This document shows, piece by piece, positions 1,208 through 18,035 of a stretch of 20,815 nucleotides of DNA (position 1 is its first letter; each line of letters starts with the position of its first letter). Origin of the DNA: Thermoproteus sp. (lineage in GTDB: Archaea > Thermoproteota > Thermoprotei > Thermoproteales > Thermoproteaceae). The translations under genes and the position numbers were made by a program. The notes beneath the pieces are model-generated. The model was given only the letters and a program-made list of their open reading frames with translations. It had not been told where the DNA came from and ran no database searches. The DNA lies in the NCBI GenBank assembly GCA_049976425.1, contig JBMFIG010000024.1, positions 1-20,815 of the forward strand, in the 5' to 3' direction.

Positions 1208-2362
1208 CCCCGCGATCGCCATGACGACGCCCACGGCCATTACGGACACCATGCCCACCGGCATTGAGCCGAAGATGCCGACTAGCAGAGGCGCCCAGCC
1301 GCCTATCAGTAGCCCCCAATTGTAGGCCACGCCGAGGCCGGTCGCCCTCTTCTCGACGCCGAACCTCCGCACGAGCACTAAGGGCACGAGCCCCATGGCG
1401 AAGTTCTCGAGGAAGGCCAAGGCCACGAGCGAGCCCGCCGAGGGGTTGAACATTAGGGCGTACGGCGCAAAGGCGAGGGCGGCCACAAGGCTCCCGACAA
1501 AAACGGCCCTATACCCCGCCACCAAGGCGAGCACGCCCCCGAGGAATACGGAGATCACGGCCGCGGCGGTCGACGCCGTCATCACCAACGGCGTGAGCTC
1601 GGCGAGGCCCACGTATTTGAGATATTGAGAATATATCAGATAGGTGGAGTAGTATATCAAGAAGAGCCCGGTCGTCATGGCTATAGCCTTGGCCAAGTCG
1701 GCCGAGCTCTCCAGGAAGAGGGCCGCGAGGGGGTTGCGCCTGGGCCTCCTCCACAGTGGGGACTCCACGGATCTTCGCCTGAGCATGAAGGCGAGGATAG
1801 CCGCCAGCGCGCCGGTCGCTATATATATCCTCCAGCCGAAGGCCGCGAACGCGGAGCCCATGGAGGCCGACATAGCCGAATAGACCAAGCTGGCGGCCAA
1901 CGCGCCTAGGGGATAGCCCGTCTGGGCGAAGGCAGACGATATCTCGCCTCTCCAGCCGCTCCACTCCATGATCATGGAGGTGCCGGGGCCCCACTCGCCG
2001 CCGAGGAACACGCCTTGAAGGGCGCGGAGGGCCAAGACAGCTATCGGCGCCGCCGCCCCCGCCGATTCGTACGGCGGCATGAGCGCTATGGCCAGGCCCG
2101 AGAGGGAGTAGCCGAGGGTAGTCGCCATAAGTCCGATCCTCCTGCCGGCCCAATCCCCGACGTAGCCCATCACGACAGAGCCTAGAGGGCGCATGACCAG
2201 AGTGGCCACCAACGTCGAGAGGCCGCCTAGGTAGCTGTACGGCCCGGGGAAGAAGACAGACCCGAGGAGGGGCAATATCGGGGCGACGAGAAGCGCGTCG
2301 TAGCCGTCCATGACCCAGCCGAGGTAGGCGGAGGCTATGGCGATAGACCTCTCTCTGGCCAT
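1178..2362 (-). CDS. MFS transporter (metabolite:H+ symporter-like)
   Basis: Highly hydrophobic, with GWVMDGYD, motif A GYVGDWAGRR, LRALQGVFLGGEW, GWR and ESP. Start placed at ATG 2362 because a TATAAAAA box lies about 25 nt upstream. Confidence 0.88.
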   Translation of the reverse strand: MARERSIAIASAYLGWVMDGYDALLVAPILPLLGSVFFPGPYSYLGGLSTLVATLVMRPLGSVVMGYVGDWAGRRIGLMATTLGYSLSGLAIALMPPYESAGAAAPIAVLALRALQGVFLGGEWGPGTSMIMEWSGWRGEISSAFAQTGYPLGALAASLVYSAMSASMGSAFAAFGWRIYIATGALAAILAFMLRRRSVESPLWRRPRRNPLAALFLESSADLAKAIAMTTGLFLIYYSTYLIYSQYLKYVGLAELTPLVMTASTAAAVISVFLGGVLALVAGYRAVFVGSLVAALAFAPYALMFNPSAGSLVALAFLENFAMGLVPLVLVRRFGVEKRATGLGVAYNWGLLIGGWAPLLVGIFGSMPVGMVSVMAVGVVMAIAGLLALGSPTP

Positions 2363-2409
2363 GGCGTAGGCTCTGCACATGTTTTTATATACTCCACACG
2401 CCTTCCGTG

Positions 2410-3555
2410 TCAGCTTTTATGGATATACGCGATGTGCGGGATCGGGCAGAGCGGGTCGTCGCCCCACATATCGCCTGTGAGGTAGTACGCCCTCGCCCTA
2501 TCGCCGCCTTTACAGTACTGCTTGAACCTACAGGCGCCGCATCTGGGGCCTCTGAGGTACCTCTCTGTGTTCACGAAGGGCTCCACGGTCTCGGGCCGGA
2601 GGATCTCGCGGAGCCTCCTCTCCCTCACGTTGCCCAGCTTGTAGAAGTCGAGGAACTGGCAGGGGTACACGTCCCCGTTGGGGTATATGGACACCATCTT
2701 CCTGCCGCACCCTCCAGCCGCCTCGACGAACCTCAGATACTCCTCCGAGCCCCCTCCCAAGAACTCGGCTATATATATCCCGTCGAAGGGCGCCAGCGTC
2801 GTCTCGATCTCTATCCTGCCGGCGTACTTCCTGGCGTATTCTATCAGCGAGTTGATGAAGGCTACGTACTGCTCCGGCGTGTAGTACCACCCCCTATCCA
2901 TCTTCTGGGCCCTTCCCGCCGCAGAGAGGTGGTAGAAGGTTATCCTCTTAACGCCGAGGGACACGGCGAAGTCTATGTACCTCGGCGCCTCCTCTATGTT
3001 CTTCGCCGTGACCGTGAAGCGGAGGCCCACGTCCAGCCCCGCCTCCACCACGTTCTTGATGCCGGCGAGAGTCGCGGCGAAGGCGCCCTTGACGCCTCTG
3101 AACGCATCGTGGTACCCCTCGTCGACCGAGTCCAAGCTTATCCCCACGTAGTAGAACCCCAAGTCCTTCAACCTCCTCGCGACTTCCCTAGTTATCAACG
3201 TGCCGTTAGTTGACAACACGAGCTTTATCCCCTTGCTCCCGGCATAGGCCGCCACGTCGAATAGATCCTCCCTAAGGAGGGGCTCGCCGCCCGAGAATAT
3301 GACCATGGGCACCCCCACCTCAGCCATCTGGTCCACCACGTCCATGGCCTCCTGCGTCGTCAGCTCGCCCGGATCTCTAGGCCCCGCGTCGACGTAGCAA
3401 TGCAGGCATTTGAGGTTGCAACGCCTGGTTATGTTCCAGGTAACCGCCGGCCTTAACGGCGCCGTGAAGTCGCTGGGCCTCCCCACGCCGTATCTCCCCT
3501 TGATCTTGAAGGAGGTGGTGCCGACGCCGGCCACCATCACGCTTATGGGTATCAC
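2410..3555 (-). CDS. Radical SAM/SPASM protein, NirJ/AhbC-like (alternative heme biosynthesis)
   Basis: CxxxCxxC in WNITRRCNLKCLHCY, SGGEPLLR, LSTNGT, YVGISLDS, and a C-terminal SPASM domain (VYPCQF, CGACRFKQYCKGGDRARA, DPLC). The N-terminus recalls AhbC. Confidence 0.8.
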   Translation of the reverse strand: MIPISVMVAGVGTTSFKIKGRYGVGRPSDFTAPLRPAVTWNITRRCNLKCLHCYVDAGPRDPGELTTQEAMDVVDQMAEVGVPMVIFSGGEPLLREDLFDVAAYAGSKGIKLVLSTNGTLITREVARRLKDLGFYYVGISLDSVDEGYHDAFRGVKGAFAATLAGIKNVVEAGLDVGLRFTVTAKNIEEAPRYIDFAVSLGVKRITFYHLSAAGRAQKMDRGWYYTPEQYVAFINSLIEYARKYAGRIEIETTLAPFDGIYIAEFLGGGSEEYLRFVEAAGGCGRKMVSIYPNGDVYPCQFLDFYKLGNVRERRLREILRPETVEPFVNTERYLRGPRCGACRFKQYCKGGDRARAYYLTGDMWGDDPLCPIPHIAYIHKS

Positions 3556-3587
3556 GAATCGTTTTTATTTCCGGTTTAAATTAATGC

Positions 3588-3917
3588 GTGTTGGAAATCG
3601 TCGCCTTCGTCCCCGCCAGGGTGGGCATCTGCAGAACTTGCGACGAGGTCGCCAAGGCCTTCAAGATAGAGCTGACGGAGGACCTCTTGGAGGAGCCCCA
3701 AGACGATCTAGCCGCACTGATGGCGGCCCTCGGCATGCTCGGCGACGTCCCCATCAGGTTCACAATCCCGACGTCTCTGAGAGGCCTCTATCTGATGATA
3801 AAGCACAGGTCGGGCAGGTTGCCGCTTGTAATAGTTAACGGCAGGCTGATCCACAGCGGGCCTGTGAGGAATCCGAGAACGTTGGCTGAAAGGATTAAAT
3901 TGTCCCTCGGAAAGTAG
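3588..3917 (+). CDS. Hypothetical protein, thioredoxin/glutaredoxin-like fold
   Basis: N-terminal CRTC (CxxC) and C-terminal LPLVIVNGRLIHSG, similar to the cis-Pro strand of thioredoxin folds. Start is GTG 3588 or TTG 3591. Confidence 0.65.
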   Translation: MLEIVAFVPARVGICRTCDEVAKAFKIELTEDLLEEPQDDLAALMAALGMLGDVPIRFTIPTSLRGLYLMIKHRSGRLPLVIVNGRLIHSGPVRNPRTLAERIKLSLGK

Positions 3918-3920
3918 ACG

Positions 3921-4777
3921 GTGGCCGATCTATTCTCGGAGGACGAGAGGCTACTCGCACTGCAACGGAAGCTGTCCCTATTAGGCTCTACGAAAGACGT
4001 GGTGGATGTAAGCGTCGGATACGCGTTGAGGTGGTGGACAGACTATATGAGGGAGAAGGGGGCAGATGCGCCGATGTGCTTTTCAAGATCCTATTGGCAG
4101 GCGGGCGCGTGGACGCCAAGGGGAATCCGCGGGGAGGCGTGAGGATACCCGCGTTGAGTTCCCCCCTCGGGATCCAGTACGTCGAGTTCCACGAGGCCGT
4201 GACGAGGTCGCTGGGGAGGCTCGACGAGGTCGCAGATCTCTTGAGGATCTCCGCGGTTACGTCCCAGTGGTACCGCCTCTTCATCGACGCCTACGTAGAC
4301 GTGTTGGGCAAAGTAGTGACCGGCAAGTTGCTTGCGCCGTACATAGGCGAGGTGTTTCCAGCCGTCGAGGAGCTGGCCAGCTTGGGCGTCTACATATATG
4401 GCTACGACAAGAGCAGAGAGGCGGCGGAGGACGCCGCCGAGGCCGGCCTCCCCTACGTCGAGATAGCGCCGGACGCTTGCGGCGCGGTTAAGGCAGTCTA
4501 CGACGCCATAGCGTTGGCGGACGGCCTTCACTGGTCCTCCAACCCCTACAAGGAGTTGAGGTGTCTCGCCGATAGGCTCAAGCCCGGCGGCAAGCTGGTC
4601 GTGGGCAACATCGACGCGTCGTCGTTGCCCTCCGTAGCCGCGGTGTTTCTGTGGGGCGGCGCCGCCAATTTCTTCACGTCGGGCTCGATCGAGGATCTGC
4701 TGTCGTCGGTCGGCTTTACGCGGGCGAGGCTCTATCTAAAGACGCCGTACTACCTCGCCGTGTGGGAGAAGGCCTAG
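3921..4777 (+). pseudogene. Class I SAM-methyltransferase-like gene split by a single-base frameshift near 4058-4062
   Basis: ORF 3921.. (MADLFSEDERLL...WWTDYMREKG) and ORF ..4777 (ADVLFKILL...YDAIALADGLHWSSNPYKELRCLADRLKPGGKLVV) fuse into 285 aa if one G is added to the G5 run. The C-terminal part has methyltransferase-like motifs. Confidence 0.65.
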
Positions 4778-5223
4778 TGGCACCGGCTGTACTTTAAATA
4801 CCGCAAGATCTCGAGCGGCGCCCCGTCGCCCCTAAGCTTCACGGAGATGGTCCTATCGGTCTCTGGGCAGTAGATCTCCACGATCAGCACGTCGCTCTTC
4901 TTCAGCAAGCCCTCCCGGCCCACTCTGTACAGCCCCTTGTGGCCGCCGAACTCGACCGGAGACCCCTCGCGGCTCAATCTGTCGCCGGGCCGCACCCTGA
5001 TCTCCAGTTCGTAGAACTTGGAACCGGCCTTGACGAAGTGCTTCACCTCGCCGTCTCTCACCCACTTAGCCCCGTCTCTCGTCACGTGGGAGAAGACGTC
5101 GGACGCCATGGGCATCACTACCACTTTCCAGTCGGGCGGGGCCGCCAACACGACAAAGTTGTAGACGCCGAGGATGCTGTTGCCCACCGCGATGGTGTGC
5201 CAGGAGTAGTCCTCAGTGGACAT
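4774..5223 (-). CDS. Hypothetical protein, last gene of the CstA/ArsA-like cluster
   Basis: 149 aa, protein-like composition; start overlaps the end of the upstream small gene by 11 nt. Confidence 0.75.
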   Translation of the reverse strand: MSTEDYSWHTIAVGNSILGVYNFVVLAAPPDWKVVVMPMASDVFSHVTRDGAKWVRDGEVKHFVKAGSKFYELEIRVRPGDRLSREGSPVEFGGHKGLYRVGREGLLKKSDVLIVEIYCPETDRTISVKLRGDGAPLEILRYLKYSRCH

Positions 5224-5476
5224 CGATCTCCGAGATCTCCTCCATGACGTCCCTATCCTTCATGACCTCCCTCTTGAAGTCGTAGAGGTCGCCGACGAAA
5301 TACGGCAGAAGCCTCAAGGCGTAGTACGTCGAGAGGAGGGGCACCCCTACGAACTCCCCGAAGACTAGGAACTCCGTTACCGTCAACAGCTGTTTGTGGG
5401 CCTTCGCGGTCTCCCTGTAAAGATCCAGGAGGAAGGCGCCGAAGAGGAAGTCGCGTATGGCTTGTGCCAGCCTCAT
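5213..5476 (-). CDS. Small CstA/ArsA-associated protein B (paralog of 7445-7693)
   Basis: 87 aa with motif GEFVGVPLLSTYYALRLLPY; ATGA overlap with the upstream ATPase stop. Confidence 0.8.
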   Translation of the reverse strand: MRLAQAIRDFLFGAFLLDLYRETAKAHKQLLTVTEFLVFGEFVGVPLLSTYYALRLLPYFVGDLYDFKREVMKDRDVMEEISEIDVH

Positions 5477-6450
5477 TTGACCAGCTCTTTGACGAACTGC
5501 CTCAGCCTATCAAGCCCTACTATGTCCTCGGGGAACAGCCTAACCCTGCTCAAGACGAGGTCGCCGAAGTATTGATCTATCAACGCGAGGTTTCTGGCCT
5601 GCTCCTCGCCCTTCGACTTCAGGAAGCCGGTCTTATCCATCTCCACCTCCTCCGGCGGTATCACCATATTCACCACGACACCGCCTATGGGTATCTCGTA
5701 GGCCTTGACCATGTCGATGAACCTCTTCACGACGGATATAGACAATACGGTCGGTATCGTGACGAAGACGAACCTGGTCTGTTGCGGATCCCTCAGAATC
5801 TCCCTGACCTTGGCGTACCGCTCCTGTAGAGAGATGAGGTCGTTCAACACGGGGTCCTTCTTTATCTCCTCGAGGACCTTCTCCTTGCGGAACGACAGCT
5901 GGTACTTCAGAGATAGGGCCTCCTGCCTCATCTTTATGGTCCTCTGGAGCCACAGCCCGTAGAGCTTGGAGAGGCCTATCAGCCTGACCGCGTTGGCCAC
6001 GGCGGCCATATCGAATATCACGCGGGAATAGTTACGCCCTTCGTTGAGCACTATGTCCATCATCTTGTCGAAGGCGGCGGCCTCGTGGAAGGATGGGTTT
6101 GTGGTTGCTATCTCCACCAACGGCCTGGTGTCCACCGGGAGCTCCGCCCACTTGAATATCTCCCTCAGCAACGAGGCCACCCTCTCCTTATACCTCTCGA
6201 CGACGTCGCCTATCTCGACCTCGACTGCGTAGAGGTTGTCCACGCCGGCCACGGGCTTTACAGCGCCTCCGCTCAGGTTCTGGCCGAACAGCGACGAGAG
6301 GGAGTGGACAGGGTTGAAGCTGGCCAGCAAGGTCTTCTCGCCCCTCTCGGCGTAGTACAGCGCCACCGCCGCCGAGACCACCGTCTTCCCGACGCCTCCC
6401 TTGCCGCCGAAGAAGAAGTACTTAGTCTTTGTGTCCAGGAGCGCCTTCAT
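5473..6450 (-). CDS. ArsA/Get3-family ATPase 2 with degenerate switch motifs
   Basis: Deviant P-loop GGKGGVGKTVVS, switch I FNPVHSLSS, switch II FDMAAVAN, and VVVN. Start placed at ATG 6450 (ATGA overlap with the ATPase 1 stop), giving 325 aa. Confidence 0.88.
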   Translation of the reverse strand: MKALLDTKTKYFFFGGKGGVGKTVVSAAVALYYAERGEKTLLASFNPVHSLSSLFGQNLSGGAVKPVAGVDNLYAVEVEIGDVVERYKERVASLLREIFKWAELPVDTRPLVEIATTNPSFHEAAAFDKMMDIVLNEGRNYSRVIFDMAAVANAVRLIGLSKLYGLWLQRTIKMRQEALSLKYQLSFRKEKVLEEIKKDPVLNDLISLQERYAKVREILRDPQQTRFVFVTIPTVLSISVVKRFIDMVKAYEIPIGGVVVNMVIPPEEVEMDKTGFLKSKGEEQARNLALIDQYFGDLVLSRVRLFPEDIVGLDRLRQFVKELVK

Positions 6451-7448
6451 ATGTACTCCTCGATGGATCTGCTCGGCGACCACAGCTCCCTGGCGACCAA
6501 CGACAGCGCCTCGAGCCCCTTGGGCTCTCTGTTCAACATAGGCACCACCGATATGACCAAGTCGCCGAACTTCTTCCTTATCTCGTCCATGTACTTCCTC
6601 TGCTCCTCCACTCTGTTCCTTATGTACTCGGGCATGTCTGGGTTCTTGGCGAGCTCGGGCGGGTAGACCTGGTTCACCACGATGCCCGTCACCTCGAGCC
6701 CCAGAGAGGAGAACATCTCGAGGGCCTTCTCGGTGTCCAGTATGCTCATCCTCTCGGGCGTGACGACCACCATGAAGGCGGCGGTCTCCCTATCCGTTAT
6801 TATATTGCGGAAGGCCACTATCCTGTCCCTTATGTACTGCAACTCCTTGAGTATCTCGTCCTCGTAGGTGAGCTTAGCCCGCTTCAGCGAGGCGGCGACC
6901 CTCCCGTACTCATATGCCTGCTTCCTCAGCTCCGTTATCTTCTCGACCCACTGGCTCAACACATCGGCCATGGCGACCATCCTTATGCCGTGTCCGAAAG
7001 GCGGCATATCGAATATGTAGTAGTCGTATTTGCCCTCGGCGACAACGTCCACCATGGCGTCGTAGACGGCGCTCTCGTACATGGCGGGCTCGGCCGCGGC
7101 GCTGTCTATGTACTCCTCCAGATCGGGCGGAAGCTTATCCAACCTATACATGTCTAGTATTTTCTTCTTTATGGAGGCCACGTACTCGTTTATCCTCTTG
7201 TCCGCGTCTATTTCGAGGACGTAGAGGTTCTCGGCTATCTTCACCTCGCCCTTGCCGAAGACGTCCCGCTCGAACACGTCGCTGAGCGAGGCCTGGGGAT
7301 CTGTGCTGAAGACGAGCACCTTCTTGTTCTGGGACAGCAACAGGGACGTGGCGGCGCTGAGCGTCGTCTTGCCGAGGCCTCCCTTGCCGGCGTAGATCAG
7401 GACCTTAAGCCTCGGCTTCCTCTCGAGAAGCCCCTTGAGGCCTATCAT
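6447..7448 (-). CDS. arsA: ArsA/Get3-family ATPase 1
   Basis: GKGGLGKTT, STDPQASLSD, IFDMPPFGH, VVTPE and IVVNQV; single domain of 333 aa with no cysteine. Confidence 0.9.
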   Translation of the reverse strand: MIGLKGLLERKPRLKVLIYAGKGGLGKTTLSAATSLLLSQNKKVLVFSTDPQASLSDVFERDVFGKGEVKIAENLYVLEIDADKRINEYVASIKKKILDMYRLDKLPPDLEEYIDSAAAEPAMYESAVYDAMVDVVAEGKYDYYIFDMPPFGHGIRMVAMADVLSQWVEKITELRKQAYEYGRVAASLKRAKLTYEDEILKELQYIRDRIVAFRNIITDRETAAFMVVVTPERMSILDTEKALEMFSSLGLEVTGIVVNQVYPPELAKNPDMPEYIRNRVEEQRKYMDEIRKKFGDLVISVVPMLNREPKGLEALSLVARELWSPSRSIEEYI

Positions 7449-7693
7449 GCTATCCTGTCGGTCACGTCCCTCTCCCTCAACATGTACATCTTCCAGGTCT
7501 GTATGTTGGGGTACATGTAGGGCAGAAGCCTAAGGGAGTAGTACGGCGGGAGTAGAGGTATGCCCAACATATCGCCGAGGGTGATTATCATGAAGAGGTT
7601 GTCTATCTGCGCCTTTATGCGGAGTATGGACGTGGCTTGTCCGTGGACGGCCATCCCCTCTATGACCTCTCTAATTCTGCTTAGAATTCCCAT
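7445..7693 (-). CDS. Small CstA/ArsA-associated protein A
   Basis: 82 aa with motif GDMLGIPLLPPYYSLRLLPY; ATGA overlap with the ATPase 1 start. Confidence 0.8.
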   Translation of the reverse strand: MGILSRIREVIEGMAVHGQATSILRIKAQIDNLFMIITLGDMLGIPLLPPYYSLRLLPYMYPNIQTWKMYMLRERDVTDRIA

Positions 7694-7712
7694 GAGGAAA
7701 AAGATGTAGGTG

Positions 7713-7720
7713 TTTATAAA
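7713..7720 (-). promoter_or_regulatory. Internal TATA box between cstA and the small-protein/ATPase genes
   Basis: TTTATAAA lies 20-27 nt upstream of ATG 7693. Confidence 0.55.
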
Positions 7721-7725
7721 GATGA

Positions 7726-9522
7726 TTATTTGCCGGCAGATGCCTCTTTCCTATATTTAATCCAACCTGAAATTAAGTAGTATGTCATTATAATTCCGAG
7801 GACTAAGAGCAACGCGCCTAAAGCCGCCGAGATGAAGTTGGAGACGCTCACCACCCACTTGCCGTAAAGTATGGCGGCCGCTACCTGGACCCCTATCGGC
7901 TTGTTCAGCCAGGCGTAGAGGCCGTAGACGTACGTCTCCCATGCGAGGGCCGCGAGGGTGGTTATCGCCATGAAGATGCCGGGCACGAAGACGTACGCAG
8001 AAGGCCTTTTCTGGCTCGTCAAGAATATGGCCACCAGCAAGAGCGCGAGCCCTGCCAACAGCTGGTTGGTGCCTCCAAAGAATATCCAAAGGTTTGTCCA
8101 AGAGCCTACGAAGGCCAAGAAACCGGCGACTACAAGTATTATCAACGACGAGATATACTTATTGCCGAGAGGAGAGCCCTCGAAGAGATCCGCCATAACC
8201 ATTCTGAACACCCTCACGAAGAGCATGGACGTAATTAGGCCCATGACCGTGACGAAGATGCCGTACAGTATGCTCATGAAAACCGGCGGCACGTGCAGTA
8301 GGCTTATGGTCAGCTTCGTGGCGCCCTGGACGTAAGCCGCCGCGCCGGCCGGCGGAGCCGCCAGAGCCATTATAGCAGCTATGGAGGAGAGGGCCACCGC
8401 GCCCTCCGTCATCATGGCGCCGCCGCCGACCGGGAGCGCGTCAGTCTCGTACTCAAGCTGCTTCGAAGTGAGGCCCGACGAGATCAAGCTGTGCCAGCCC
8501 GATATCGCGCCGCAGGCTATCGTGACGAAGAGTATCGGCCATATGGGGCCTCCCTGCGGATTAACTAGCGGATCTACGTAGAGGGCCTTCACGGCGGTTT
8601 GTTGTATCGTTATGCCGGTGAGCGGCGTGGCTATGGCGGCGATGAGGACCAGGACCAGCGCTATTATAGACGGGAGGTACCCGACGTAGACAGTGGGCAG
8701 GAGGAACTTGGGCATTACGGTGACGGCCGCCACGAAGTATATCACCGACAGGAGCACGAGCCAGAAGAGCACCGTCATGGTGCCAGGCCAAGTAAGGGTC
8801 TCGGGCTTCGCTCCGCCTAGAGGCGGGAACTTGGAAAGGTATGCCGGGCTGTCAAGGAAGTTTGTGGGCGGGTTGCGCACCGCTGGCACAAGGGTCACTG
8901 TGAAGTACCCGACGAGGACTATCAACAAGGCTATTAAGGTCGCCTTCAACACGTCCATCCTCATCTTGAAGACCATCTGTCCGAAGAGGACGCCGCCCAG
9001 CAAGACGAACAGCACCGCGGTGAAGGTGCCGGGGACTCTGTTCAGGACGTCGATGATCACCCACTCGAAAACAGCGGTGATTATTATCACATAGAATATG
9101 AGATACACCAGGAGTATGGTCCTCGCCCTGCCGCCTAACAGCTTGTACGTTATGGGGCCCATCGACCGCCCCTCGCTCCTGATAGACATCATCATGGCTG
9201 AGTAGTCCTGTACCCAGCCGATGAACATGTTGCCGAAGATAACCCAGAGCAACGCCGGGATCCAGCCGTAGAAGAGCGCCCCCGTGAGCGGGCCCACTAT
9301 TGGGCCGAGCGCAGCCACGGACTTGAACTGGTAGCCGAACAGCACGTATTTAGAGACGGGGAAGTACTCGACGCCGTCGAAGTACAGCTTGGCCGGGGTC
9401 GGCCTGTTGGGATCGGCGTTCCAGATCTTGCGATCTACGTATTTAGAGTAGGTCATATAGGTAATAAAATATAGTATTAACCCTGCCAATACATAGGGGG
9501 CCGGCGTATCGAAGAAGCCCAT
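7726..9522 (-). CDS. cstA: Carbon starvation protein A (CstA) family membrane transporter
   Basis: 598 aa polytopic membrane protein with PTPA..YFDGVEY, GPIVGP, YGWIPALLWVIFG, PIWPILFVTIACGAISGWHSLISSG.TSKQL and LWIFFGGTNQLLA. Confidence 0.92.
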   Translation of the reverse strand: MGFFDTPAPYVLAGLILYFITYMTYSKYVDRKIWNADPNRPTPAKLYFDGVEYFPVSKYVLFGYQFKSVAALGPIVGPLTGALFYGWIPALLWVIFGNMFIGWVQDYSAMMMSIRSEGRSMGPITYKLLGGRARTILLVYLIFYVIIITAVFEWVIIDVLNRVPGTFTAVLFVLLGGVLFGQMVFKMRMDVLKATLIALLIVLVGYFTVTLVPAVRNPPTNFLDSPAYLSKFPPLGGAKPETLTWPGTMTVLFWLVLLSVIYFVAAVTVMPKFLLPTVYVGYLPSIIALVLVLIAAIATPLTGITIQQTAVKALYVDPLVNPQGGPIWPILFVTIACGAISGWHSLISSGLTSKQLEYETDALPVGGGAMMTEGAVALSSIAAIMALAAPPAGAAAYVQGATKLTISLLHVPPVFMSILYGIFVTVMGLITSMLFVRVFRMVMADLFEGSPLGNKYISSLIILVVAGFLAFVGSWTNLWIFFGGTNQLLAGLALLLVAIFLTSQKRPSAYVFVPGIFMAITTLAALAWETYVYGLYAWLNKPIGVQVAAAILYGKWVVSVSNFISAALGALLLVLGIIMTYYLISGWIKYRKEASAGK

Positions 9523-9552
9523 ATAGCAACTTCTAATCCCTATTTTTAAGCA

Positions 9553-10110
9553 TTACTTCTTTATATATTTCCCTAAAATCTCAATGATAGTTTTCGATGT
9601 TTGTATAGCGGAGATGCAGTTGTCGGAGGCTATATATATTTGGAGCGGGGAGCCTCCGCCTACCACGATCCTCGCCACGCCGAGCCTCGCGCAGGCCTCG
9701 GCCAGCTCGGCCACAAGCGCCCTGGGATACGACCGCCCGACCACGTAGCACCTGCCGATTCTCTCAGCTGGGCCGAGAGCCCCCTTGCTCGACATGTCGA
9801 GTTGCCAAGGCAGGCGGACGCCGAGGTCTACCTTCACCACAGCGACGGGCCTCCGTCGGGCTAGAAGGCTCGCGGCCAGATTAAACGGATTATCCCAGGG
9901 AAGCCTCTGCACGAAGATCCCCACATACTTCGCCCATCCGCACTCCATCTCGACCAGATAGGAGGTGCCGGTGGCGAGGTAACGGGACGTCTTGCATGGA
10001 CCACAGCTCCTTGCGGCCTTCGCGTTGACCCGGCGTCCGACGACCGTGGCGAGGCTGTACCAGGCCCCGATGAACACGGCGAGAAGCACCACGATAGTCG
10101 GCAGATCCAT
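9553..10110 (-). CDS. Hypothetical protein with N-terminal membrane anchor, upstream of cstA
   Basis: Start placed at ATG 10110 (MDLPTIVVLLAVFIGAWYSLATVVGRRVN), 185 aa. The longer ORF-track start overlaps the divergent gene. Confidence 0.75.
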   Translation of the reverse strand: MDLPTIVVLLAVFIGAWYSLATVVGRRVNAKAARSCGPCKTSRYLATGTSYLVEMECGWAKYVGIFVQRLPWDNPFNLAASLLARRRPVAVVKVDLGVRLPWQLDMSSKGALGPAERIGRCYVVGRSYPRALVAELAEACARLGVARIVVGGGSPLQIYIASDNCISAIQTSKTIIEILGKYIKK

Positions 10111-10134: not shown

Positions 10135-10404
10135 ATGAGGCGTATCTCGGCTAGATACTCGCGGGAAGGTCTCTTCGTGGACGGCAAGAAGATCCCAGAA
10201 GGCTTCTCCCCGATAGAGCTGTTGGCCGCCGCGGTGGCCTACGGCGTCGGGTCTAAGCATATGGACGCCGGCCTCGGCGGGTACGAGATCGAGTGCCTAG
10301 TGGAGGGCGACGAGGTGCGCTGTAGGGGAAAGTGTACGGGCGTCGAGGAGCGCTGTCTCGTGTTCAGACTTCTGAGGAGGGCGGTCGCCTTTGAATGCGT
10401 CTAG
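10135..10404 (+). CDS. Small OsmC-like hypothetical protein
   Basis: GFSPIELLAAAVAYG and EERCLVFRLL resemble the two OsmC/Ohr signature segments; 89 aa. Confidence 0.6.
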   Translation: MRRISARYSREGLFVDGKKIPEGFSPIELLAAAVAYGVGSKHMDAGLGGYEIECLVEGDEVRCRGKCTGVEERCLVFRLLRRAVAFECV

Positions 10405-10811
10405 AAAGGCCTCAGAGGCGCCGGCCTGGGTATCTGCGGCGGGATCGCGGTGTGCCATATGAGGTAGGAGGCCAGGGCCGTTATCAACGTCGCCAGCAAC
10501 ACAGCGGCGAGGGCCCTCAATAGGCCTACGCCTGTCAACGCCGATATTGCTCCGAGGGCCAGCAAAACGCCTAGGAGAAACGCCGCGGGGATAGCGAAGA
10601 GCAAGAAGGGAGGAAATACCGCGGCTAGCACGACCGATACGAACAACCCGATCACTACACCTAGTATGAAGAGTATGGGCGCCAGCACTGCGGCGAGGAG
10701 GACCAGGAGGGGATTCACCGGCCTGCCCTTGAGCAGAGTGAGGGAGCCCCAGAGCGCGAGGAGCCACAAGACGGCCCAGACGACTAAACCGAGCATAGAG
10801 CTACCTAACAT
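10401..10811 (-). CDS. Hypothetical membrane protein
   Basis: 136 aa, almost entirely hydrophobic; alternative start at 10796. Confidence 0.75.
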   Translation of the reverse strand: MLGSSMLGLVVWAVLWLLALWGSLTLLKGRPVNPLLVLLAAVLAPILFILGVVIGLFVSVVLAAVFPPFLLFAIPAAFLLGVLLALGAISALTGVGLLRALAAVLLATLITALASYLIWHTAIPPQIPRPAPLRPF

Positions 10812-10832
10812 AGAGCTAACGCACCCGTGATA

Positions 10833-10882
10833 TCAGCATTTTCGGTCACGGTCACCGGGCCCCTAGCGGAAGGACTCATCAC
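10833..10882 (-). ncRNA. C/D-box guide sRNA
   Basis: Minus strand reads GTGATGA-GTCCTTCCGCTA-GGGG-CCCG-GTGACCG-TGACCGAAAATG-CTGA: perfect C and D boxes, two 12-nt guides, 50 nt long. The C box overlaps the stop codon of the upstream gene. Confidence 0.8.
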
Positions 10883-12051
10883 GGCACCACCCTAGCCCCT
10901 ATATACGTCAAATATTCTTTAGCCTCCTCGTAGACGTCGTCGAGGACGAAGGCGAGGTGGTTGCCGAGCCCCGCCTCGTATATGTCCTTGGCCGAGCCCG
11001 TCAAGAGCTTGAGGCCCACCTGGCTGTTGCAAGCCTCCACCCTCTCGGCCTCGACAGTGACGGCTCTGAGCAGTAGGGCCTTCTTGAGATCCGCCGAGAC
11101 TCTCAGCAAGGTTGCCGCGACTCCCGACGGGAACTTAGCCCTTATGGCCGCAGGGGCCTTGATGAGCATCCTCCCCACGATGGAGTACTCCTCCGCCATC
11201 ATGGGCGGGGCCCCGTCGTGGGTCAAGACCAATAGGTCGCCCTCGGCCACGTTCACGTTGCCCATCCAGGCGGGTCCGCCCGAGAGGCGTGACAACACGT
11301 ACATGGAGTACAACGCCCTCAGATCGCCCTCGCAGGCCGCGGGGACGCCCATCTGGTTCAGAAGGGCCAGCGAGATGCAGGGGGTCCAGCCCAGCCTGCG
11401 CACCGCCTCCCTGTCGAAACACCAACAGCCGAGGGTCAGACCGTCCCACCCCCTCTTTTTCGCCAGCTCCGCCAGCCTCTTGGCGTATGCGGCCATGGGC
11501 GCGAGCTGGACGTCGGAGAACTCGCTGGAGCTGGCGCCGGCCGCGAGCCTCCTGGCGTCCTCCAAGCCGGATCTCGTGTCGAGCCCCGAGAGGCTCTCCT
11601 CTAGGGATATCTGGTCGACCGTGACCAACGTCATGTTGCTGGAGACCAGCCAGGGGTTGGGCGCGCCCACCAGGCCGAAGCGGGGGGTGCCCGACTTGAT
11701 GAGGTCGATAAGCCTCAGCGCTCTGACGACCCTCTCGTCGAGCCGTTGATCCGGCCCCGAGAGGGCTATCACCTTGGCGTACCTCCCCGAGTCCCTCAAG
11801 GCGGCAGACGCCTCAAGCGCCGAGGGCAACGAGTTGTAGTGGGGCCACGCCAGTATCACGTTGTACTGTCTCGCCGACGCCAAGATCTCGTTCTCGGCCC
11901 CTCCGGTCAACACCACTACTACGGCCACGTCGGAGTCCGGCCTCAGCGATAGGCCTAGGCCGGCCAGTTGCTTCTTGAAATCCTCGTAGTAGGACCTCTT
12001 GACGTCCTCGGCCACATCGCGGGAGGCGGACACGGCTAGGAATACCTCCAC
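10879..12051 (-). CDS. L-fucose isomerase-related protein
   Basis: 390 aa with VLTGGAE, NSLPSALE, CW, TPCISLALLN..GVPAACEGD and GLGNHLA, typical of fucose-isomerase-like proteins. Confidence 0.75.
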   Translation of the reverse strand: MEVFLAVSASRDVAEDVKRSYYEDFKKQLAGLGLSLRPDSDVAVVVVLTGGAENEILASARQYNVILAWPHYNSLPSALEASAALRDSGRYAKVIALSGPDQRLDERVVRALRLIDLIKSGTPRFGLVGAPNPWLVSSNMTLVTVDQISLEESLSGLDTRSGLEDARRLAAGASSSEFSDVQLAPMAAYAKRLAELAKKRGWDGLTLGCWCFDREAVRRLGWTPCISLALLNQMGVPAACEGDLRALYSMYVLSRLSGGPAWMGNVNVAEGDLLVLTHDGAPPMMAEEYSIVGRMLIKAPAAIRAKFPSGVAATLLRVSADLKKALLLRAVTVEAERVEACNSQVGLKLLTGSAKDIYEAGLGNHLAFVLDDVYEEAKEYLTYIGARVVP

Positions 12052-12090
12052 GGAATTCGCCGCAGGCGAGAATAAAAAGGTTTAGATCCG

Positions 12091-12402
12091 CTACAAGAAC
12101 GAAATGTATATTAGATAGCCCGTCACGGCGATGCCGATAGCCCATACGTATATATCTGCCCTCTTCCCCACGCGCAGAGCCCATAGAGAGAACCCGGCGA
12201 TGGCGTGTAGAGAGCCGGCTATAATTAAGAACATGGGCAGTAGGTCTAGGTGTAGCCTTGCGCATACGGCGTACGGTATAGGGAAGGCGTAGGGCTTAGC
12301 CATGCAGTAGCCCGTCAACACCGCCGTGAACCCCAAGGCGGCCAGCAGAGCCGACGTGAGATCTGTCAACGCTAGGTAGATGAGATTTTTATTGAGTCCC
12401 AT
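12091..12402 (-). CDS. Small three-helix membrane protein, possible b-type heme binder
   Basis: 103 aa with three hydrophobic segments; two His (RLHLD, SLHAIAG) flank the second helix. Confidence 0.7.
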   Translation of the reverse strand: MGLNKNLIYLALTDLTSALLAALGFTAVLTGYCMAKPYAFPIPYAVCARLHLDLLPMFLIIAGSLHAIAGFSLWALRVGKRADIYVWAIGIAVTGYLIYISFL

Positions 12403-12431
12403 ATATATCTGTGAGCAGGAGAAATATCTTA

Positions 12432-13253
12432 ATGTTGATGCTGTTAAGCCCGTTATATAGGCTGATAGCCTCCCTCGTAGTAGCCGCCGGGGCTCTAGGC
12501 GCCCTATCGCTGACCGCGACGGGGTTCCGGAAGGGCGGAGGCGCCGGCAAGGCGGCGAGCGGCGAGATCTTTCTGCCGATCCCCAGCCTGAGCGGGACCA
12601 TGTCGGTCGAGGAGGCCTTGTCGAGGAGGAGGTCGGTGAGGGAGTATCTGAAAAGCCCCATAACTCTGTCGGAGCTGTCCCAGATCTTGTGGGCCGCCTA
12701 CGGCATATCTGAGACCAGATGGGGCTTGAGGACCGCGCCCAGCGCCGGCGCCATATATCCGCTGAACGTCTACGTCGTTGTCGGCGAGGGAGGGGTATCG
12801 GGGGACGGGGGCGCGCTCGAGGCGGGAGTGTATAAGTATCTGCCGCATAGGCATTCGATAGTTCTCCTCAAAGGCGGGGACGTGAGGAGGAGGCTGTACG
12901 AGGCGGCCCTACGCCAGATCTGGGTCCTCGAAGCTCCCGTCTCCCTTGTTGTGACGGCCCAGTACGAGAAGACGGCGAGGATATACGGCGAGAGGGGCAG
13001 GGTGAGGTACGTGCATATGGATCTCGGCCATCTGGGCCAGAACGTCTACCTCCAGGCCACTGCTCTGGGGCTGGGGACCGTGGCCGTGGGGGCTTTCGAC
13101 GACGACGGGGTGAGGGAGGTTCTGGGGCTCCCCGACGGGGAGACCCCGCTGTATATAATGCCTGTGGGGAGGGTTGCGAGGCTGTACCGGATCAGCCGGG
13201 AGGAGCTCGCCGAGTACTACTCAAGGAACAGATCTACCCCCCTCGCCCCATAG
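12432..13253 (+). CDS. SagB/ThcOx-family FMN-dependent oxidoreductase (nitroreductase fold) with N-terminal hydrophobic segment
   Basis: MSVEEALSRRRSVREY, LSQILWAAYG, LRTAPSAGAIYPL, MDLGHLGQNVYLQATALGLGTVAVGAFDD. Start uncertain (12411, 12432 or 12438). Confidence 0.88.
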   Translation: MLMLLSPLYRLIASLVVAAGALGALSLTATGFRKGGGAGKAASGEIFLPIPSLSGTMSVEEALSRRRSVREYLKSPITLSELSQILWAAYGISETRWGLRTAPSAGAIYPLNVYVVVGEGGVSGDGGALEAGVYKYLPHRHSIVLLKGGDVRRRLYEAALRQIWVLEAPVSLVVTAQYEKTARIYGERGRVRYVHMDLGHLGQNVYLQATALGLGTVAVGAFDDDGVREVLGLPDGETPLYIMPVGRVARLYRISREELAEYYSRNRSTPLAP

Positions 13254-15190: not shown

Positions 15191-15260
15191 AAGGCGCCTC
15201 TCCCCACCCCTATTTCTCCATTACGCCGTTATAGTTATTAACCGAGCCGCACCGACGGCA

Positions 15261-16610: not shown

Positions 16611-16654
16611 AATCCGCTACGTAAAATTTTTCAGACGAGCCGTAGGCGGACGCC

Positions 16655-17622: not shown

Positions 17623-17637
17623 GGAGAAAAGAGGGGT

Positions 17638-17991: not shown

Positions 17992-18035
17992 ATAGCCTTA
18001 GGAAAATCGATTTATATCAATATCCTCCGACTCTC

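What the first reader, a model, noticed from the sequence alone, without database searches (positions are those of the whole stretch)
4774..10110. CstA + twin ArsA/Get3 ATPase + twin small-protein cluster: candidate uncharacterised ATP-linked transport or targeting system
Seen: seven co-oriented genes in the order membrane-anchored hypothetical, cstA, small A, ATPase 1, ATPase 2, small B, hypothetical. The last five are joined by overlapping stop and start codons. No arsB, acr3, arsC, arsD or arsR is present, and neither ATPase contains a cysteine. Known: metalloid-activated ArsA needs Cys ligands, fungal/animal Get3 has a CxxC zinc site, and characterised CstA proteins (E. coli CstA/BtsT) are secondary peptide or pyruvate transporters with no ATPase partner. 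Related cstA-small protein-arsA neighbourhoods are, as I recall, seen in some bacteria but are not functionally explained. Inference: these ATPases are neither arsenic pumps nor ordinary Get3. They may energise, regulate or insert the CstA-like permease through the small adaptor proteins, by analogy with ArsA-ArsB.
Basis: partly seen in the sequence, partly recalled or inferred. Interest (0 to 1): 0.85.

Follow-up and report, generated by a model that had tools for sequence, protein, structure and literature searches.

The report
CstA permease with paired Get3-like ATPases
This is a Thermoproteus copy of a widespread gene cluster, described from genome comparisons in 2010, that links a CstA-family membrane permease to small helical proteins and a pair of Get3/ArsA-type ATPases, and I found no laboratory test of what it does.

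Summary
Seven co-oriented minus-strand genes lie at 4774-10110: CstY-like anchor, CstA, CstX1, ATPase 1, ATPase 2, CstX2 and a 149-aa protein. The last five overlap, and both ATPases lack cysteine.

The cluster is not new. Castillo & Saier 2010 (PMC2963123) described cstA-cstX-(cstY)-arsA-homologue operons, including the twin ATPases and twin CstX of Pyrobaculum arsenaticum. This scan has also met the module repeatedly on other DNA. I found no experimental test.

What I add:
- At least 577 species encode CstX. In 70 of the 80 best loci the order CstX-ATPase1-ATPase2 is kept, and 69 of 80 hold CstA.
- The two ATPases are ancient paralogues forming their own clade, apart from ArsA and the solo Get3-like genes.
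- ATPase 2 carries Asn at the catalytic Asp position in 70 of 71 sequences.
- The 149-aa protein travels with CstX2 and has an invariant His/Cys/Cys/His set.
- E. coli btsT-yjiX-yjiA is an analogous arrangement.

The mechanism remains inferred.

The parts
9553..10110 (-). CstY-like protein, 185 aa, with an N-terminal membrane anchor; archaeal accessory gene upstream of cstA
   Evidence: ORF, with the start at the ATG at 10110 supported by homologue alignments. KD19 maximum 2.39 at residues 6-24. No Pfam or NCBIfam family. 92% identical to Thermoproteus uzoniensis TUZN_1269. Found upstream of cstA in 6 of the 80 loci, all labelled Thermoproteus, Pyrobaculum, Thermoproteales, Desulfurococcales or Sulfolobales. 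Fits the 'CstY' of Castillo & Saier.
7726..9522 (-). CstA-family permease, 598 aa
   Evidence: PF02554 E 5.3e-95. It is the only CstA in the genome. It scores far below the E. coli CstA equivalog cut-off, 156 against 1188 bits. No solved structure matched by sequence.
7445..7693 (-). CstX1, 82-aa helical protein immediately upstream of ATPase 1
   Evidence: 358 relatives carry the precomputed family PF25952. 468 cluster representatives match the profile. Weak match to NCBIfam NF041419 'cory-CC-star', 38.7 bits against a cut-off of 80. AlphaFold2 model has mean pLDDT 77.8 with helices at 3-42, 52-60 and 64-81. No PDB fold match. 20 invariant columns in 31 sequences, including G40-D41, P49-P50-Y51-Y52 and W67-K68.
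6447..7448 (-). ATPase 1, 333 aa, Get3/ArsA-fold with intact catalytic motifs
   Evidence: TIGR00345 235.4 bits against a cut-off of 135. Best PDB match 3ug6, E 5.1e-60. Across the family the P-loop is GKGGLGKT, the switch I Asp is present in 65 of 65 and the switch II His in 66 of 66. No Cys.
5473..6450 (-). ATPase 2, 325 aa, paralogue with an intact P-loop but Asn at the catalytic Asp position
   Evidence: TIGR00345 207.9 bits. 29% identical to ATPase 1. Switch I has Asn in 70 of 71 family members. Switch II reads D-T-A-P-T-A-N, with Asn in 67 of 71 and His in 4 of 71. Forms its own clade with SH-aLRT 99.
5213..5476 (-). CstX2, 87-aa paralogue of CstX1
   Evidence: 28% identity to CstX1, E 9e-14. 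NF041419 match of 26 bits. In the 8 archaeal loci with a CstX copy downstream of ATPase 2, that copy is followed by hypC. It ends in His in the window and in 5 of those 8 copies.
4774..5223 (-). hypC, 149-aa all-beta protein that travels with CstX2
   Evidence: Adjacent to a CstX2-type gene in 10 of 10 loci where it was found, either after ATPase 2-CstX2 or as hypC-CstX2 ahead of cstA. Invariant H95, C119, C148 and H149 in 10 sequences. AlphaFold2 mean pLDDT 92.5. Weak fold similarity to Tsi3, PsbP, DcrB and Mog1-type sandwiches, TM 0.45-0.55. No Pfam or NCBIfam family.

Best explanation
The locus is a Thermoproteus member of the conserved cstA-cstX-(cstY)-arsA-homologue module.

Most likely working (inferred, not shown):
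- ATPase 1 and ATPase 2 form an asymmetric Get3/ArsA-fold heterodimer. ATPase 1 hydrolyses ATP. ATPase 2 binds nucleotide but is hydrolysis-impaired because it has Asn in place of the catalytic Asp.
- The two CstX helical proteins, one per ATPase, tie this dimer to the single CstA-family permease.
- The ATP-driven closing and opening of the dimer then drives or gates transport, in the manner of ArsA with ArsB.
- In Thermoproteota and a few other archaea, CstY (membrane-anchored) and hypC (possible His/Cys metal site, paired with CstX2) are lineage-specific accessories.

What is shown: the gene content, order and translational coupling; the conservation of the module; the two ancient ATPase paralogue clades and their motif asymmetry.

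What is inferred: heterodimer formation, every protein contact, the substrate, and whether ATP powers or only regulates transport.
For: - Gene content, overlaps and absence of Cys come.
- Of the 80 best loci, 70 keep CstX-ATPase1-ATPase2 in that order. Of the other 10, 8 are cut by a contig end before the pair could appear, and 2 (L037, L071) show a lone CstX. 69 of 80 hold CstA within the fetched flank.
- These loci span Thermoproteota, Bathyarchaeia, Thermoplasmata, Methanoperedens, Acidobacteriota, Chloroflexota, Actinomycetota, Desulfobacterota and Pseudomonadota.
- In the tree, ATPase 1 (32 rows) and ATPase 2 (38 rows) are each one side of a branch (SH-aLRT 99) and are sisters (94). Each splits into an archaeal and a bacterial half, so the pair was inherited together.
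- Motifs: ATPase 1 has the switch I Asp in 65 of 65 and the switch II His in 66 of 66. ATPase 2 has Asn in 70 of 71 with an intact P-loop.
- In 151 Thermoproteota genomes, 38 have a Get3/ArsA-family gene over cut-off and 35 have CstA; 28 have both. Five CstA genomes without the ATPase also gave no CstX match, 0 of 5.
- Castillo & Saier reported parallel trees of CstA, CstX and the ArsA homologues (PMC2963123, section 3.2).
- A separate, deep clade of single CstA-linked ATPases also has a diverged CstX-like small ORF between cstA and the ATPase.
- E. coli btsT-yjiX-yjiA repeats the pattern of permease, small protein and P-loop NTPase.
Against: - No physical contact is shown by any search.
- Characterised CstA-family proteins are annotated as proton symporters that need no ATPase; BtsT is annotated 'pyruvate:H(+) symporter'.
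- Two of the five CstX genomes without an adjacent CstA gave no CstA match anywhere (their completeness is unknown).
- Four Thermoproteota genomes of one family carry both CstA and a Get3-like gene that are not linked.
- ATPase 1 is closest to archaeal Get3-type structures rather than to ArsA. Both ATPases keep a Get3-length helical insert of about 20-21 residues, against 4.5 in ArsA. This fits a helix-binding chaperone as well as it fits a pump motor.
- CstX hydrophobicity is borderline for a membrane span, KD19 1.58 and 1.76.
Confidence: 0.42

Rival explanations
1. Dedicated biogenesis machine. The Get3-like heterodimer is a chaperone or targeting factor that captures the hydrophobic helix of the small CstX proteins, which are too short for co-translational insertion. 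It may also capture segments of CstA. It delivers them to the membrane and so assembles the CstA-CstX complex. ATP is spent on assembly, not on transport.
For: - The best solved relatives of ATPase 1 are the archaeal Get3-type entries 3ug6 and 3zq6, E 5e-60 and 1e-54, against about 1e-26 for E. coli ArsA.
- Both ATPases pass TIGR00345.
- The helical subdomain insert keeps its Get3 length, 21.2 and 19.9 residues against 4.5 in ArsA.
- CstX sits immediately upstream of ATPase 1 in 70 of 80 loci. It has one moderately hydrophobic helix at about residues 30-48 of 82.
- The genome has no other Get3-family gene.
- A natural Asp-to-Asn subunit would favour a long-lived closed, client-holding state. 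The Get3 D57N trap behaviour is recalled, not read here.
Against: - The insert is more charged than in the two CxxC-bearing solo Get3-like genes, 47-49% charged against 34%. That reference has only 2 sequences.
- The helical subdomains are conserved in exact residues. This suggests one fixed partner rather than a general hydrophobic groove, although CstX could be that partner.
- The CstX hydrophobic helix carries an invariant Gly-Asp and is followed by an invariant Pro-Pro.
- A two-ATPase machine for one small client seems costly.
Confidence: 0.3
2. Metal- or metalloid-linked function. The module handles a metal ion or metal-bound substrate. The small proteins and hypC act as ligand-carrying chaperones for the ATPase, as ArsD does for ArsA, or as a COG0523-type metallochaperone such as YjiA might do next to BtsT.
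For: - hypC has invariant H95, C119, C148 and H149 in 10 of 10 sequences.
- CstX2 ends in His in the window and in 5 of the 8 archaeal downstream copies.
- Several bacterial distal copies end in His-rich tails, for example P0123 and P0195.
- CstX matches NCBIfam 'cory-CC-star'. An earlier scan note describes a Cys-Cys-stop mini-protein in such a trio (e1-3141820).
- E. coli has yjiA, a P-loop GTPase, after btsT-yjiX. Its metal binding is recalled, not checked here.
Against: - The core proteins CstX1, ATPase 1 and ATPase 2 have no Cys. 53 of 66 ATPase 1 and 41 of 71 ATPase 2 relatives are Cys-free.
- hypC was found in only 10 of the 80 loci, all archaeal, so it is not part of the universal core.
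- No metal-related family was detected for any of the seven proteins.
Confidence: 0.1
3. General tail-anchored protein targeting factor. The pair is simply the organism's housekeeping Get3 and lies next to cstA by chance.
For: These are the only two TIGR00345 members in the genome. They are closest to archaeal Get3-type structures.
Against: - Fixed synteny with CstX and CstA across domains: 70 and 69 of 80 loci.
- 113 of 151 Thermoproteota genomes have no family member over the cut-off, so Get3 is not a general requirement there.
- The CxxC is lost.
- One subunit lacks the catalytic Asp.
Confidence: 0.05
4. Arsenite or antimonite pump ATPase (true ArsA) split into two genes.
For: Both ATPases match Pfam PF02374 'Anion-transporting ATPase'. 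About 25% identity to plasmid ArsA.
Against: - 97.5 and 108.3 bits against the ArsA equivalog cut-off of 650.
- No Cys at all.
- No ars genes among the 27 ORFs scanned.
- A clade separate from both ArsA halves.
Confidence: 0.02

Closest known systems
cstA-cstX-(cstY)-arsA-homologue operons, clusters 14-18 (especially cluster 15) of Castillo & Saier 2010, Int J Microbiol 2010:187373 (PMC2963123)
   Same: The gene set is the same: CstA, a ~90-aa CstX, a ~200-aa single-span CstY in archaea, and single-domain ~330-aa ArsA homologues without the ArsA cysteines or ars genes. Cluster 15 lists two adjacent ArsA homologues of Pyrobaculum arsenaticum (334 and 327 aa, 31% identical) and two CstX paralogues. 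That organism is in the same family as this window's organism. The functional proposal is also the same: the ATPase energises CstA through CstX as a linker.
   Different: Nothing essential differs at the level of the finding. The paper found 26 instances and treated twin ATPases as two special cases. The word 'heterodimer' occurs 0 times in it. It notes only that the switch I Asp 'can be substituted only by N'. It does not describe the 149-aa hypC partner of CstX2.
Archaeal Get3-type ATPases with solved structures (PDB 3ug6/3ug7 and 3zq6; deposited names 'arsenical pump-driving ATPase'). That these are the M. jannaschii and M. thermautotrophicus Get3 homologues is recalled.
   Same: Single-domain Get3/ArsA fold. 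They are the best sequence matches of ATPase 1 (E 5.1e-60 and 1.3e-54). P-loop, switch I and switch II align. The helical subdomain has similar length.
   Different: The aligned CxxC (CDFC, CEFC) is replaced by a Cys-free stretch. Here there are two diverged paralogues rather than one homodimer-forming gene. One paralogue lacks the catalytic Asp. The genes are fixed next to CstX and CstA.
ArsA-ArsB arsenite pump (with the ArsD metallochaperone)
   Same: A Get3/ArsA-fold ATPase with two non-identical nucleotide-binding halves is genetically tied to a permease that, in other contexts, can work as a secondary carrier. A small accessory protein sits upstream of the ATPase; the arsD-arsA order is seen.
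   Different: ArsA is one ~580-aa fused protein with Cys ligands. Here there are two separate Cys-free genes. They fall far below the ArsA cut-off and form a separate clade. The permease family is unrelated.
E. coli btsT-yjiX-yjiA (and cstA-ybdD)
   Same: A CstA-family permease is followed on the same strand by a small protein of about 67 aa and then a P-loop NTPase. That YjiA belongs to the same SIMIBI class as Get3/ArsA is recalled.
   Different: YjiX (PF04328) shows no detectable homology to CstX (hhalign probability 0.7%). YjiA is a GTPase of another family and a single gene. This is an analogy, not membership.
Mycobacterial BagA/BagB paired Get3-like ATPases (recalled; the paper was not available in the library)
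   Same: Two adjacent, diverged Get3/ArsA-fold ATPases thought to work as a pair, and not arsenic-related.
   Different: NCBIfam BagA and BagB equivalogs are matched only at the P-loop end: 48 and 40 bits for BagA against a cut-off of 400, and 28 and 40 bits for BagB against a cut-off of 521. No CstA or CstX context is known to me.

Membership tests
cstA-cstX-(cstY)-arsA-homologue gene cluster (Castillo & Saier 2010) | CstA-family permease in the cluster | tested here: met
   PF02554 E 5.3e-95
cstA-cstX-(cstY)-arsA-homologue gene cluster (Castillo & Saier 2010) | ~90-aa CstX gene next to cstA and the ATPase | tested here: met
   Two copies of 82 and 87 aa. Their relatives lie between cstA and the ATPases in the surveyed loci. 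I could not compare them letter by letter with the paper's CstX sequences.
cstA-cstX-(cstY)-arsA-homologue gene cluster (Castillo & Saier 2010) | Single-domain ~330-aa ArsA homologue lacking the three ArsA cysteines, with no ars genes in the operon | tested here: met
   333 and 325 aa, 0 Cys. No ars family among the 27 ORFs scanned.
cstA-cstX-(cstY)-arsA-homologue gene cluster (Castillo & Saier 2010) | In archaea, a ~210-aa single-span CstY | tested here: met
   185 aa with one N-terminal hydrophobic span, KD19 2.39. Conserved upstream of cstA in 6 of the 80 loci, all labelled Thermoproteus, Pyrobaculum, Thermoproteales, Desulfurococcales or Sulfolobales. Identity with the paper's CstY is inferred from size, position and topology only.
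ArsA arsenical pump ATPase (NCBIfam TIGR04291) | Score over the equivalog cut-off (650 bits); fused two-domain protein of about 580 aa | tested here: not met
   97.5 and 108.3 bits. These are two separate genes of about 330 aa.
ArsA arsenical pump ATPase (NCBIfam TIGR04291) | Metalloid-binding cysteines (C113, C172, C422 of E. coli ArsA, as cited in PMC2963123 section 3.12) | tested here: not met
   No cysteine in either ATPase
Get3/TRC40 tail-anchor targeting ATPase | Membership of the TIGR00345 GET3/ArsA/TRC40 subfamily | tested here: met
   235.4 and 207.9 bits against a cut-off of 135
Get3/TRC40 tail-anchor targeting ATPase | CxxC zinc site at the dimer interface | tested here: not met
   The aligned position holds a Cys-free stretch in place of CDFC and CEFC. 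The region has no Cys in the 66 and 71 family members.
Get3/TRC40 tail-anchor targeting ATPase | Catalytic Asp in switch I of every subunit | tested here: not met
   Present in ATPase 1 (65 of 65 in its family) but Asn in ATPase 2 (70 of 71)
Get3/TRC40 tail-anchor targeting ATPase | Binds tail-anchored clients and hands them to a membrane receptor | not testable with these tools
   This needs biochemistry. No structure-based support was obtained here.
BagA/BagB (NCBIfam NF053622, NF053621) | Score over the equivalog cut-offs (400 and 521 bits) | tested here: not met
   BagA model: 48 and 40.3 bits. BagB model: 28.4 and 40.3 bits. Only the P-loop region is matched.
cory-CC-star small protein (NCBIfam NF041419) | Score over the cut-off (80 bits) | tested here: not met
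   38.7 bits (CstX1) and 26 bits (CstX2). They are related but outside that equivalog. Neither window protein contains a Cys.
YbdD/YjiX small proteins (PF04328) | Detectable homology to the family | tested here: not met
   No Pfam hit. hhalign probability 0.7% against E. coli YjiX.

The most novel reading that the evidence does not exclude
CstA-family permeases may be the membrane part of an undescribed kind of machine. In it a SIMIBI-class NTPase is coupled to the permease through tiny, extremely conserved helical proteins.

Three versions of the NTPase would exist:
- here, an obligate Get3-fold heterodimer with one catalytic and one permanently non-hydrolysing subunit;
- in another clade, a single Get3-like ATPase;
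- in E. coli, the GTPase YjiA.

The ATPase would work either as a new ATP-gated or ATP-driven transport mode for a secondary-carrier fold, or as a prokaryotic Get3-based pathway dedicated to assembling one multi-pass permease with its microprotein subunits.
Probability: 0.25. Interest if true: 0.8.

Novelty: already known. Interest (0 to 1): 0.4.

Why it matters
The module is widespread. At least 577 species encode CstX, and the profile finds 468 CstX cluster representatives at 50% identity. CstX1-type proteins are 50-59% identical between this archaeon and bacteria of several phyla. Yet I found no experiment on the module.

Working out its function would settle two questions. One is what Get3-fold ATPases do in prokaryotes that have no known Get1/2 receptor. 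The other is why CstA-type 'carbon starvation' permeases so often carry a small protein and a P-loop NTPase.

The value of this particular window is modest, because it is one more copy of a published cluster type. The additions here give concrete handles for a biochemical test:
- the near-universal pairing of the two ATPases;
- the invariant Asp-to-Asn subunit;
- the hypC-CstX2 pairing;
- the E. coli analogy.

Tried and rejected
Complex prediction. ATPase 1 + ATPase 2 + CstX2 + CstX1, each with its own alignment and CstX1 as the partner, returned 'no answer' (score 0.01, mark 0.32). The controls were not run. This is neither support nor evidence against binding.

RNA evidence. No RNA holder was listed for 4774-10110.

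Fused forms.
- The 'longer' search found only two 148-aa proteins.
- The profile search gave one tandem CstX-CstX protein (P0123, 163 aa).
- It also gave one 5'-truncated fragment joining a CstA C-terminus to CstX (P0154; Pfam CstA positions 477-560).
I treat P0154 as a single unverified hint.

CstX fold. The model (pLDDT 77.8) had 0 PDB matches.

hypC fold. Only weak matches were found (TM 0.45-0.55) to Tsi3, PsbP, DcrB and Mog1-like sandwiches. The atlas gave nothing with a family above 0.91. No function was assigned.

- The atlas listed a CCDC47 cluster at 0.77, below the level that counts.
- A profile of 11 CstY sequences found no CCDC47 chain in the PDB sequences at E <= 10.
- Pfam gave no PF07946 for any of the 11 members.
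The lead is not supported here and not excluded.

Family PF25952. It is shown as a precomputed label but is not in the local Pfam library, so I do not know its name.

Promoter and terminator scan. Counts did not exceed the shuffles (3 against 2.5, and 5 against 4.2). The patterns are bacterial, so this is uninformative for an archaeon.

Tree. The careful search did not finish in 300 s. The quick IQ-TREE result is reported, with midpoint root and long branches flagged by the tool. Before the tree I reduced 137 ATPase sequences to 70 with a 4-mer redundancy filter and added 14 Thermoproteota genes and the two ArsA halves.

Motif counts. Only ORFs aligned over more than 250 residues were used, so fragments and frameshifted copies were dropped.

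Literature. Searches found only PMC2963123 treating CstA together with ArsA or Get3.
- Of PMC2963123 I read the outline, abstract, passages found by term, sections 3.2 and 3.12 in full, and one table passage. Its supplements were closed.
- Of the other listed papers I saw only the search listing and the start of the abstracts.
- The BagAB paper, the Get3 D57N work, the identity of 3ug6 and 3zq6 as Get3 homologues, and the metal binding and SIMIBI class of YjiA are all recalled.

Full report
**What is in the window**

Seven genes lie head to tail on the minus strand between 4774 and 10110.

| Gene | Coordinates | Length | Family evidence |
|---|---|---|---|
| CstY-like | 9553-10110 | 185 aa | none |
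| CstA | 7726-9522 | 598 aa | PF02554, E 5e-95 |
| CstX1 | 7445-7693 | 82 aa | no Pfam hit; NF041419 'cory-CC-star' 38.7 bits (cut-off 80) |
| ATPase 1 | 6447-7448 | 333 aa | PF02374, E 2e-70; TIGR00345 235 bits (cut-off 135) |
| ATPase 2 | 5473-6450 | 325 aa | PF02374, E 1e-58; TIGR00345 208 bits |
| CstX2 | 5213-5476 | 87 aa | no Pfam hit; NF041419 26 bits |
| hypC | 4774-5223 | 149 aa | none |

The two small proteins also belong to a family labelled PF25952 in the precomputed annotation of the big protein collection. That family is not in the local library.

The three junctions CstX1/ATPase 1, ATPase 1/ATPase 2 and ATPase 2/CstX2 are ATGA overlaps. CstX2 and hypC overlap by 11 nt. The two upstream junctions are gaps of 30 and 32 nt. 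Neither ATPase nor either small protein contains a cysteine.

The small proteins are paralogues (28% identity, E 9e-14), and so are the ATPases (29% identity, E 7e-38). No arsenic-resistance family was found among the 27 window ORFs I scanned.

The organism is a Thermoproteus. CstY is 92% identical to T. uzoniensis TUZN_1269, and CstX1 is 95% identical (P0002) to a protein named as from a Thermoproteus sp. MAG.

**It is already in print**

Castillo & Saier (Int J Microbiol 2010:187373, PMC2963123) examined ArsA homologues with SEED. They reported the following:
- Five archaea with an extra ~210-aa single-span 'CstY'.
- No ars genes and none of the ArsA cysteines in these operons.
- Parallel trees for CstA, CstX and the ATPases.
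- A proposal that the ATPase energises CstA, with CstX as the linker.

Their cluster 15 consists of two adjacent ArsA homologues of Pyrobaculum arsenaticum (334 and 327 aa, 31% identical) and of Symbiobacterium thermophilum. They also note two CstX paralogues in P. arsenaticum. That is the same family of organisms and the same twin layout as here.

My searches for CstA with ArsA or Get3, for 'CstX', and for 'carbon starvation protein' with ArsA found no other paper on the subject and no experiment.

The scan's own notes show that this module has been met and followed up many times on other genomes, with the same conclusion.

**How conserved is it**

Of these, 577 encode a CstX relative.

I annotated the 80 best loci with phmmer, using the seven window proteins as queries.
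- 70 of 80 have CstX, then an ATPase 1-type gene, then an ATPase 2-type gene, in that order.
- Of the other 10, 8 are cut by a contig end before the pair could appear, and 2 (L037, L071) show a lone CstX.
- 69 of 80 have CstA in the fetched flank.
- Of the 11 without CstA, 6 have less than 1.3 kb of upstream sequence.
- For the other 5, a whole-genome search found CstA elsewhere in 3 and none in 2 genomes of unknown completeness.
- The commonest layouts are CstA-X-1-2 (24 loci) and CstA-X-X-1-2 (24 loci).
- The layout of this window (Y-A-X-1-2-X-hypC, including copies with cstA inverted) occurs in 6 loci, all labelled Thermoproteus, Pyrobaculum, Thermoproteales, Desulfurococcales or Sulfolobales.

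The 80 loci come from many archaeal and bacterial phyla. They are, however, the 80 most similar to CstX1, not a random sample.

In a sample of 151 Thermoproteota genomes:
- 38 have a Get3/ArsA-family gene over the curated cut-off, 35 have CstA, and 28 have both.
- In most of the 28 the genes are adjacent, by coordinates.
- In four genomes of one family they are unlinked.
- Five CstA genomes without the ATPase gave no CstX match either (0 of 5; that call had no positive control of its own).

**What the ATPases are**

ATPase 1's best solved relatives are 3ug6/3ug7 and 3zq6 (E 5e-60 and 1e-54). Fungal and animal Get3 and E. coli ArsA follow at about 1e-22 to 1e-27. In the printed alignments the CxxC of the two archaeal structures (CDFC, CEFC) faces a Cys-free stretch in ATPase 1.

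The NCBIfam equivalogs for ArsA (cut-off 650), haloarchaeal ArsA (800), BagA (400), BagB (521) and NosAFP (325) are all missed by wide margins.

I built a quick maximum-likelihood tree of 86 sequences. Its rows were:
- 32 ATPase 1-type and 38 ATPase 2-type sequences, left after a redundancy filter;
- 14 other Thermoproteota Get3-like genes;
- the two halves of a plasmid ArsA.

The tree shows:
- ATPase 1 and ATPase 2 are each one side of a branch (SH-aLRT 99) and are joined as sisters (94).
- They sit apart from ArsA, from CxxC-bearing solo genes, and from a deep separate clade of single ATPases that are also next to CstA.
- Within each paralogue clade, the archaeal and bacterial sequences separate in the same way.

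The duplication is therefore old and the two genes have travelled together. The tree is the quick version because the careful search did not finish. Several outgroup branches are long, so only the monophyly of the two paralogue groups should be relied on.

**An asymmetric pair**

| Motif | ATPase 1 type (66 incl. the window) | ATPase 2 type (71 incl. the window) |
|---|---|---|
| P-loop | GKGGLGKT | GKGGVGKT |
| Switch I | S-[VT]-D-P-Q-A-S; Asp in 65 of 65 | S-T-N-P-V-H-S; Asn in 70 of 71 |
| Switch II | D-x-x-P-x-G-H; His in 66 of 66 | D-T-A-P-T-A-N; Asn in 67 of 71, His in 4 of 71 |

None of the 14 other Thermoproteota genes, nor either ArsA half, has Asn at that switch I position.

By analogy with Get3, where the corresponding Asp-to-Asn mutant binds but does not hydrolyse ATP (recalled, not read here), ATPase 2 is most simply read as a nucleotide-binding, hydrolysis-impaired subunit of a heterodimer. 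This point was also made by another first-stage note on this genome and by an earlier follow-up on another genome. I confirm it on my own sample. Castillo & Saier only remark that the Asp 'can be substituted only by N', and they never use the word heterodimer.

**The small proteins**

- CstX1-type proteins are strikingly conserved. The mean column identity is 70% over 31 sequences from both domains, with 20 invariant positions. These include G40-D41, G44, P46, P49-P50-Y51-Y52, W67-K68, R73, D76 and D79.
- The AlphaFold2 model has mean pLDDT 77.8. It shows a 40-residue helix, a Pro-rich turn and two short helices. It has no PDB look-alike.
- The most hydrophobic 19-residue window (30-48) scores 1.58 for CstX1 and 1.76 for CstX2. 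This is borderline for a membrane span.
- A second paralogue is common: 38 'distal' copies upstream of the first one, and 8 copies downstream of ATPase 2 in archaea.
- The diverged single-ATPase clade also has a small ORF with the same core pattern between cstA and the ATPase.
- The profile search of 1.84 billion representatives found 468 clusters at E <= 0.001. These include one tandem CstX-CstX protein, one truncated CstA-CstX fusion fragment, and several with a ~100-residue N-terminal extension with no Pfam match.

**The archaeal extras**

hypC:
- It was found in 10 of the 80 loci and is always next to a CstX2-type gene. That holds even in the two loci where the pair has moved in front of cstA (L022, L027).
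- It has invariant H95, C119, C148 and H149.
- It gives a confident all-beta model (pLDDT 92.5) with only weak resemblance to Tsi3, PsbP, DcrB and Mog1-type folds.
- A metal site is a reasonable guess, not a finding.

CstY:
- It has a clear N-terminal anchor.
I could not test it by structure.

**An analogy worth noting**

In E. coli K-12 the CstA-family gene btsT is followed on the same strand by yjiX (a small PF04328 protein) and yjiA (a P-loop GTPase). CstX and YjiX are not detectably related. The order permease, micro-protein, P-loop NTPase therefore seems to have arisen more than once around CstA-family permeases.

**Mechanism**

I put the coupling model first (0.42). In it an asymmetric ATPase heterodimer is tied by CstX to CstA and drives or gates transport.

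The dedicated Get3-like assembly model comes second (0.30). Points in its favour:
- the ATPases are Get3-like rather than ArsA-like in sequence and in the length of the helical insert;
- CstX always directly precedes ATPase 1.

Against a generic hydrophobic groove, the insert is more charged than in the two CxxC-type solo genes (only two reference sequences), and the subdomain is conserved residue by residue.

A metal-linked role (0.10), a housekeeping Get3 (0.05) and an arsenic pump (0.02) follow.

No call shows a contact between any two of these proteins. The one complex job gave no answer and is recorded only under what was tried.

**Verdict**

As a finding it is already known, and this window adds one more member from a family already represented in the 2010 paper.

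Noticed in passing
window 4774-5223 (hypC); L006-L009, L022, L027, L030, L032, L039, L047: The 149-aa protein has invariant His95, Cys119, Cys148 and His149 (the protein ends in Cys-His). It always lies beside a CstX2-type gene, even where that pair has moved in front of cstA. It is a possible metal site with an all-beta fold of the PsbP/Mog1/DcrB type.
   Followed up: partly
L086 (E. coli K-12 NC_000913.3 4587909-4591279): btsT, yjiX and yjiA lie on one strand in the order CstA-family permease, small protein, P-loop GTPase. This is an analogue of the CstA-CstX-ATPase order, with no detectable CstX/YjiX homology.
   Followed up: partly
L091, L096, L097, L098 (unnamed Thermoproteota genomes G117, G013, G053, G093): A separate, deep clade of single Get3-like ATPases also sits next to cstA. 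A diverged CstX-like small ORF lies between them. The ATPase of L091 ends in ...CCYG.
   Followed up: partly
L006:10219-11242 (Thermoproteus sp. AZ2 MAG); G098:C10:39983-40889 (same-genus genome): In two close relatives the ATPase 1 gene appears in two or three pieces, one with an in-frame TAG, while ATPase 2 is whole. This could be sequencing error or decay of the catalytic subunit.
   Followed up: no
proteins P0187, P0146, P0138 (bacterial CstX relatives): Some bacterial CstX proteins carry a ~100-130-residue N-terminal extension. P0187 and P0146 have CxxC- or CxxxC-like motifs there. The extension looks thioredoxin-like to my eye, but there is no Pfam match.
   Followed up: no
proteins P0123 and P0154: P0123 is a 163-aa tandem CstX-CstX protein with a His-rich tail. 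P0154 is a 5'-truncated fragment joining a CstA C-terminus (Pfam positions 477-560) to CstX. Neither contig could be inspected.
   Followed up: partly
window 176-4777 and 10401-20674: Neighbours by Pfam: M20 peptidase (176-1207 +), MFS (1178-2380 -), radical SAM/SPASM (2410-3555 -), methyltransferase (4031-4777 +), nitroreductase (12411-13253 +), MFS (13221-14603 -), SurE (14438-15190 -), DUF402 (15066-16610 +), SDR (16876-17622 -), UbiA (18331-19323 +), AsnC-type ligand domain (19342-19614 +). ORFs 10401-10811 and 10879-12051 have no family.
   Followed up: no
window 7726-9522 (CstA): The Pfam CstA model matches in two pieces (positions 6-354 and 408-560), as in the other ATPase-linked CstA genes of Thermoproteota. 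CstA genes not linked to an ATPase match end to end at about 500 bits. This suggests a distinct ATPase-linked CstA subfamily.
   Followed up: no
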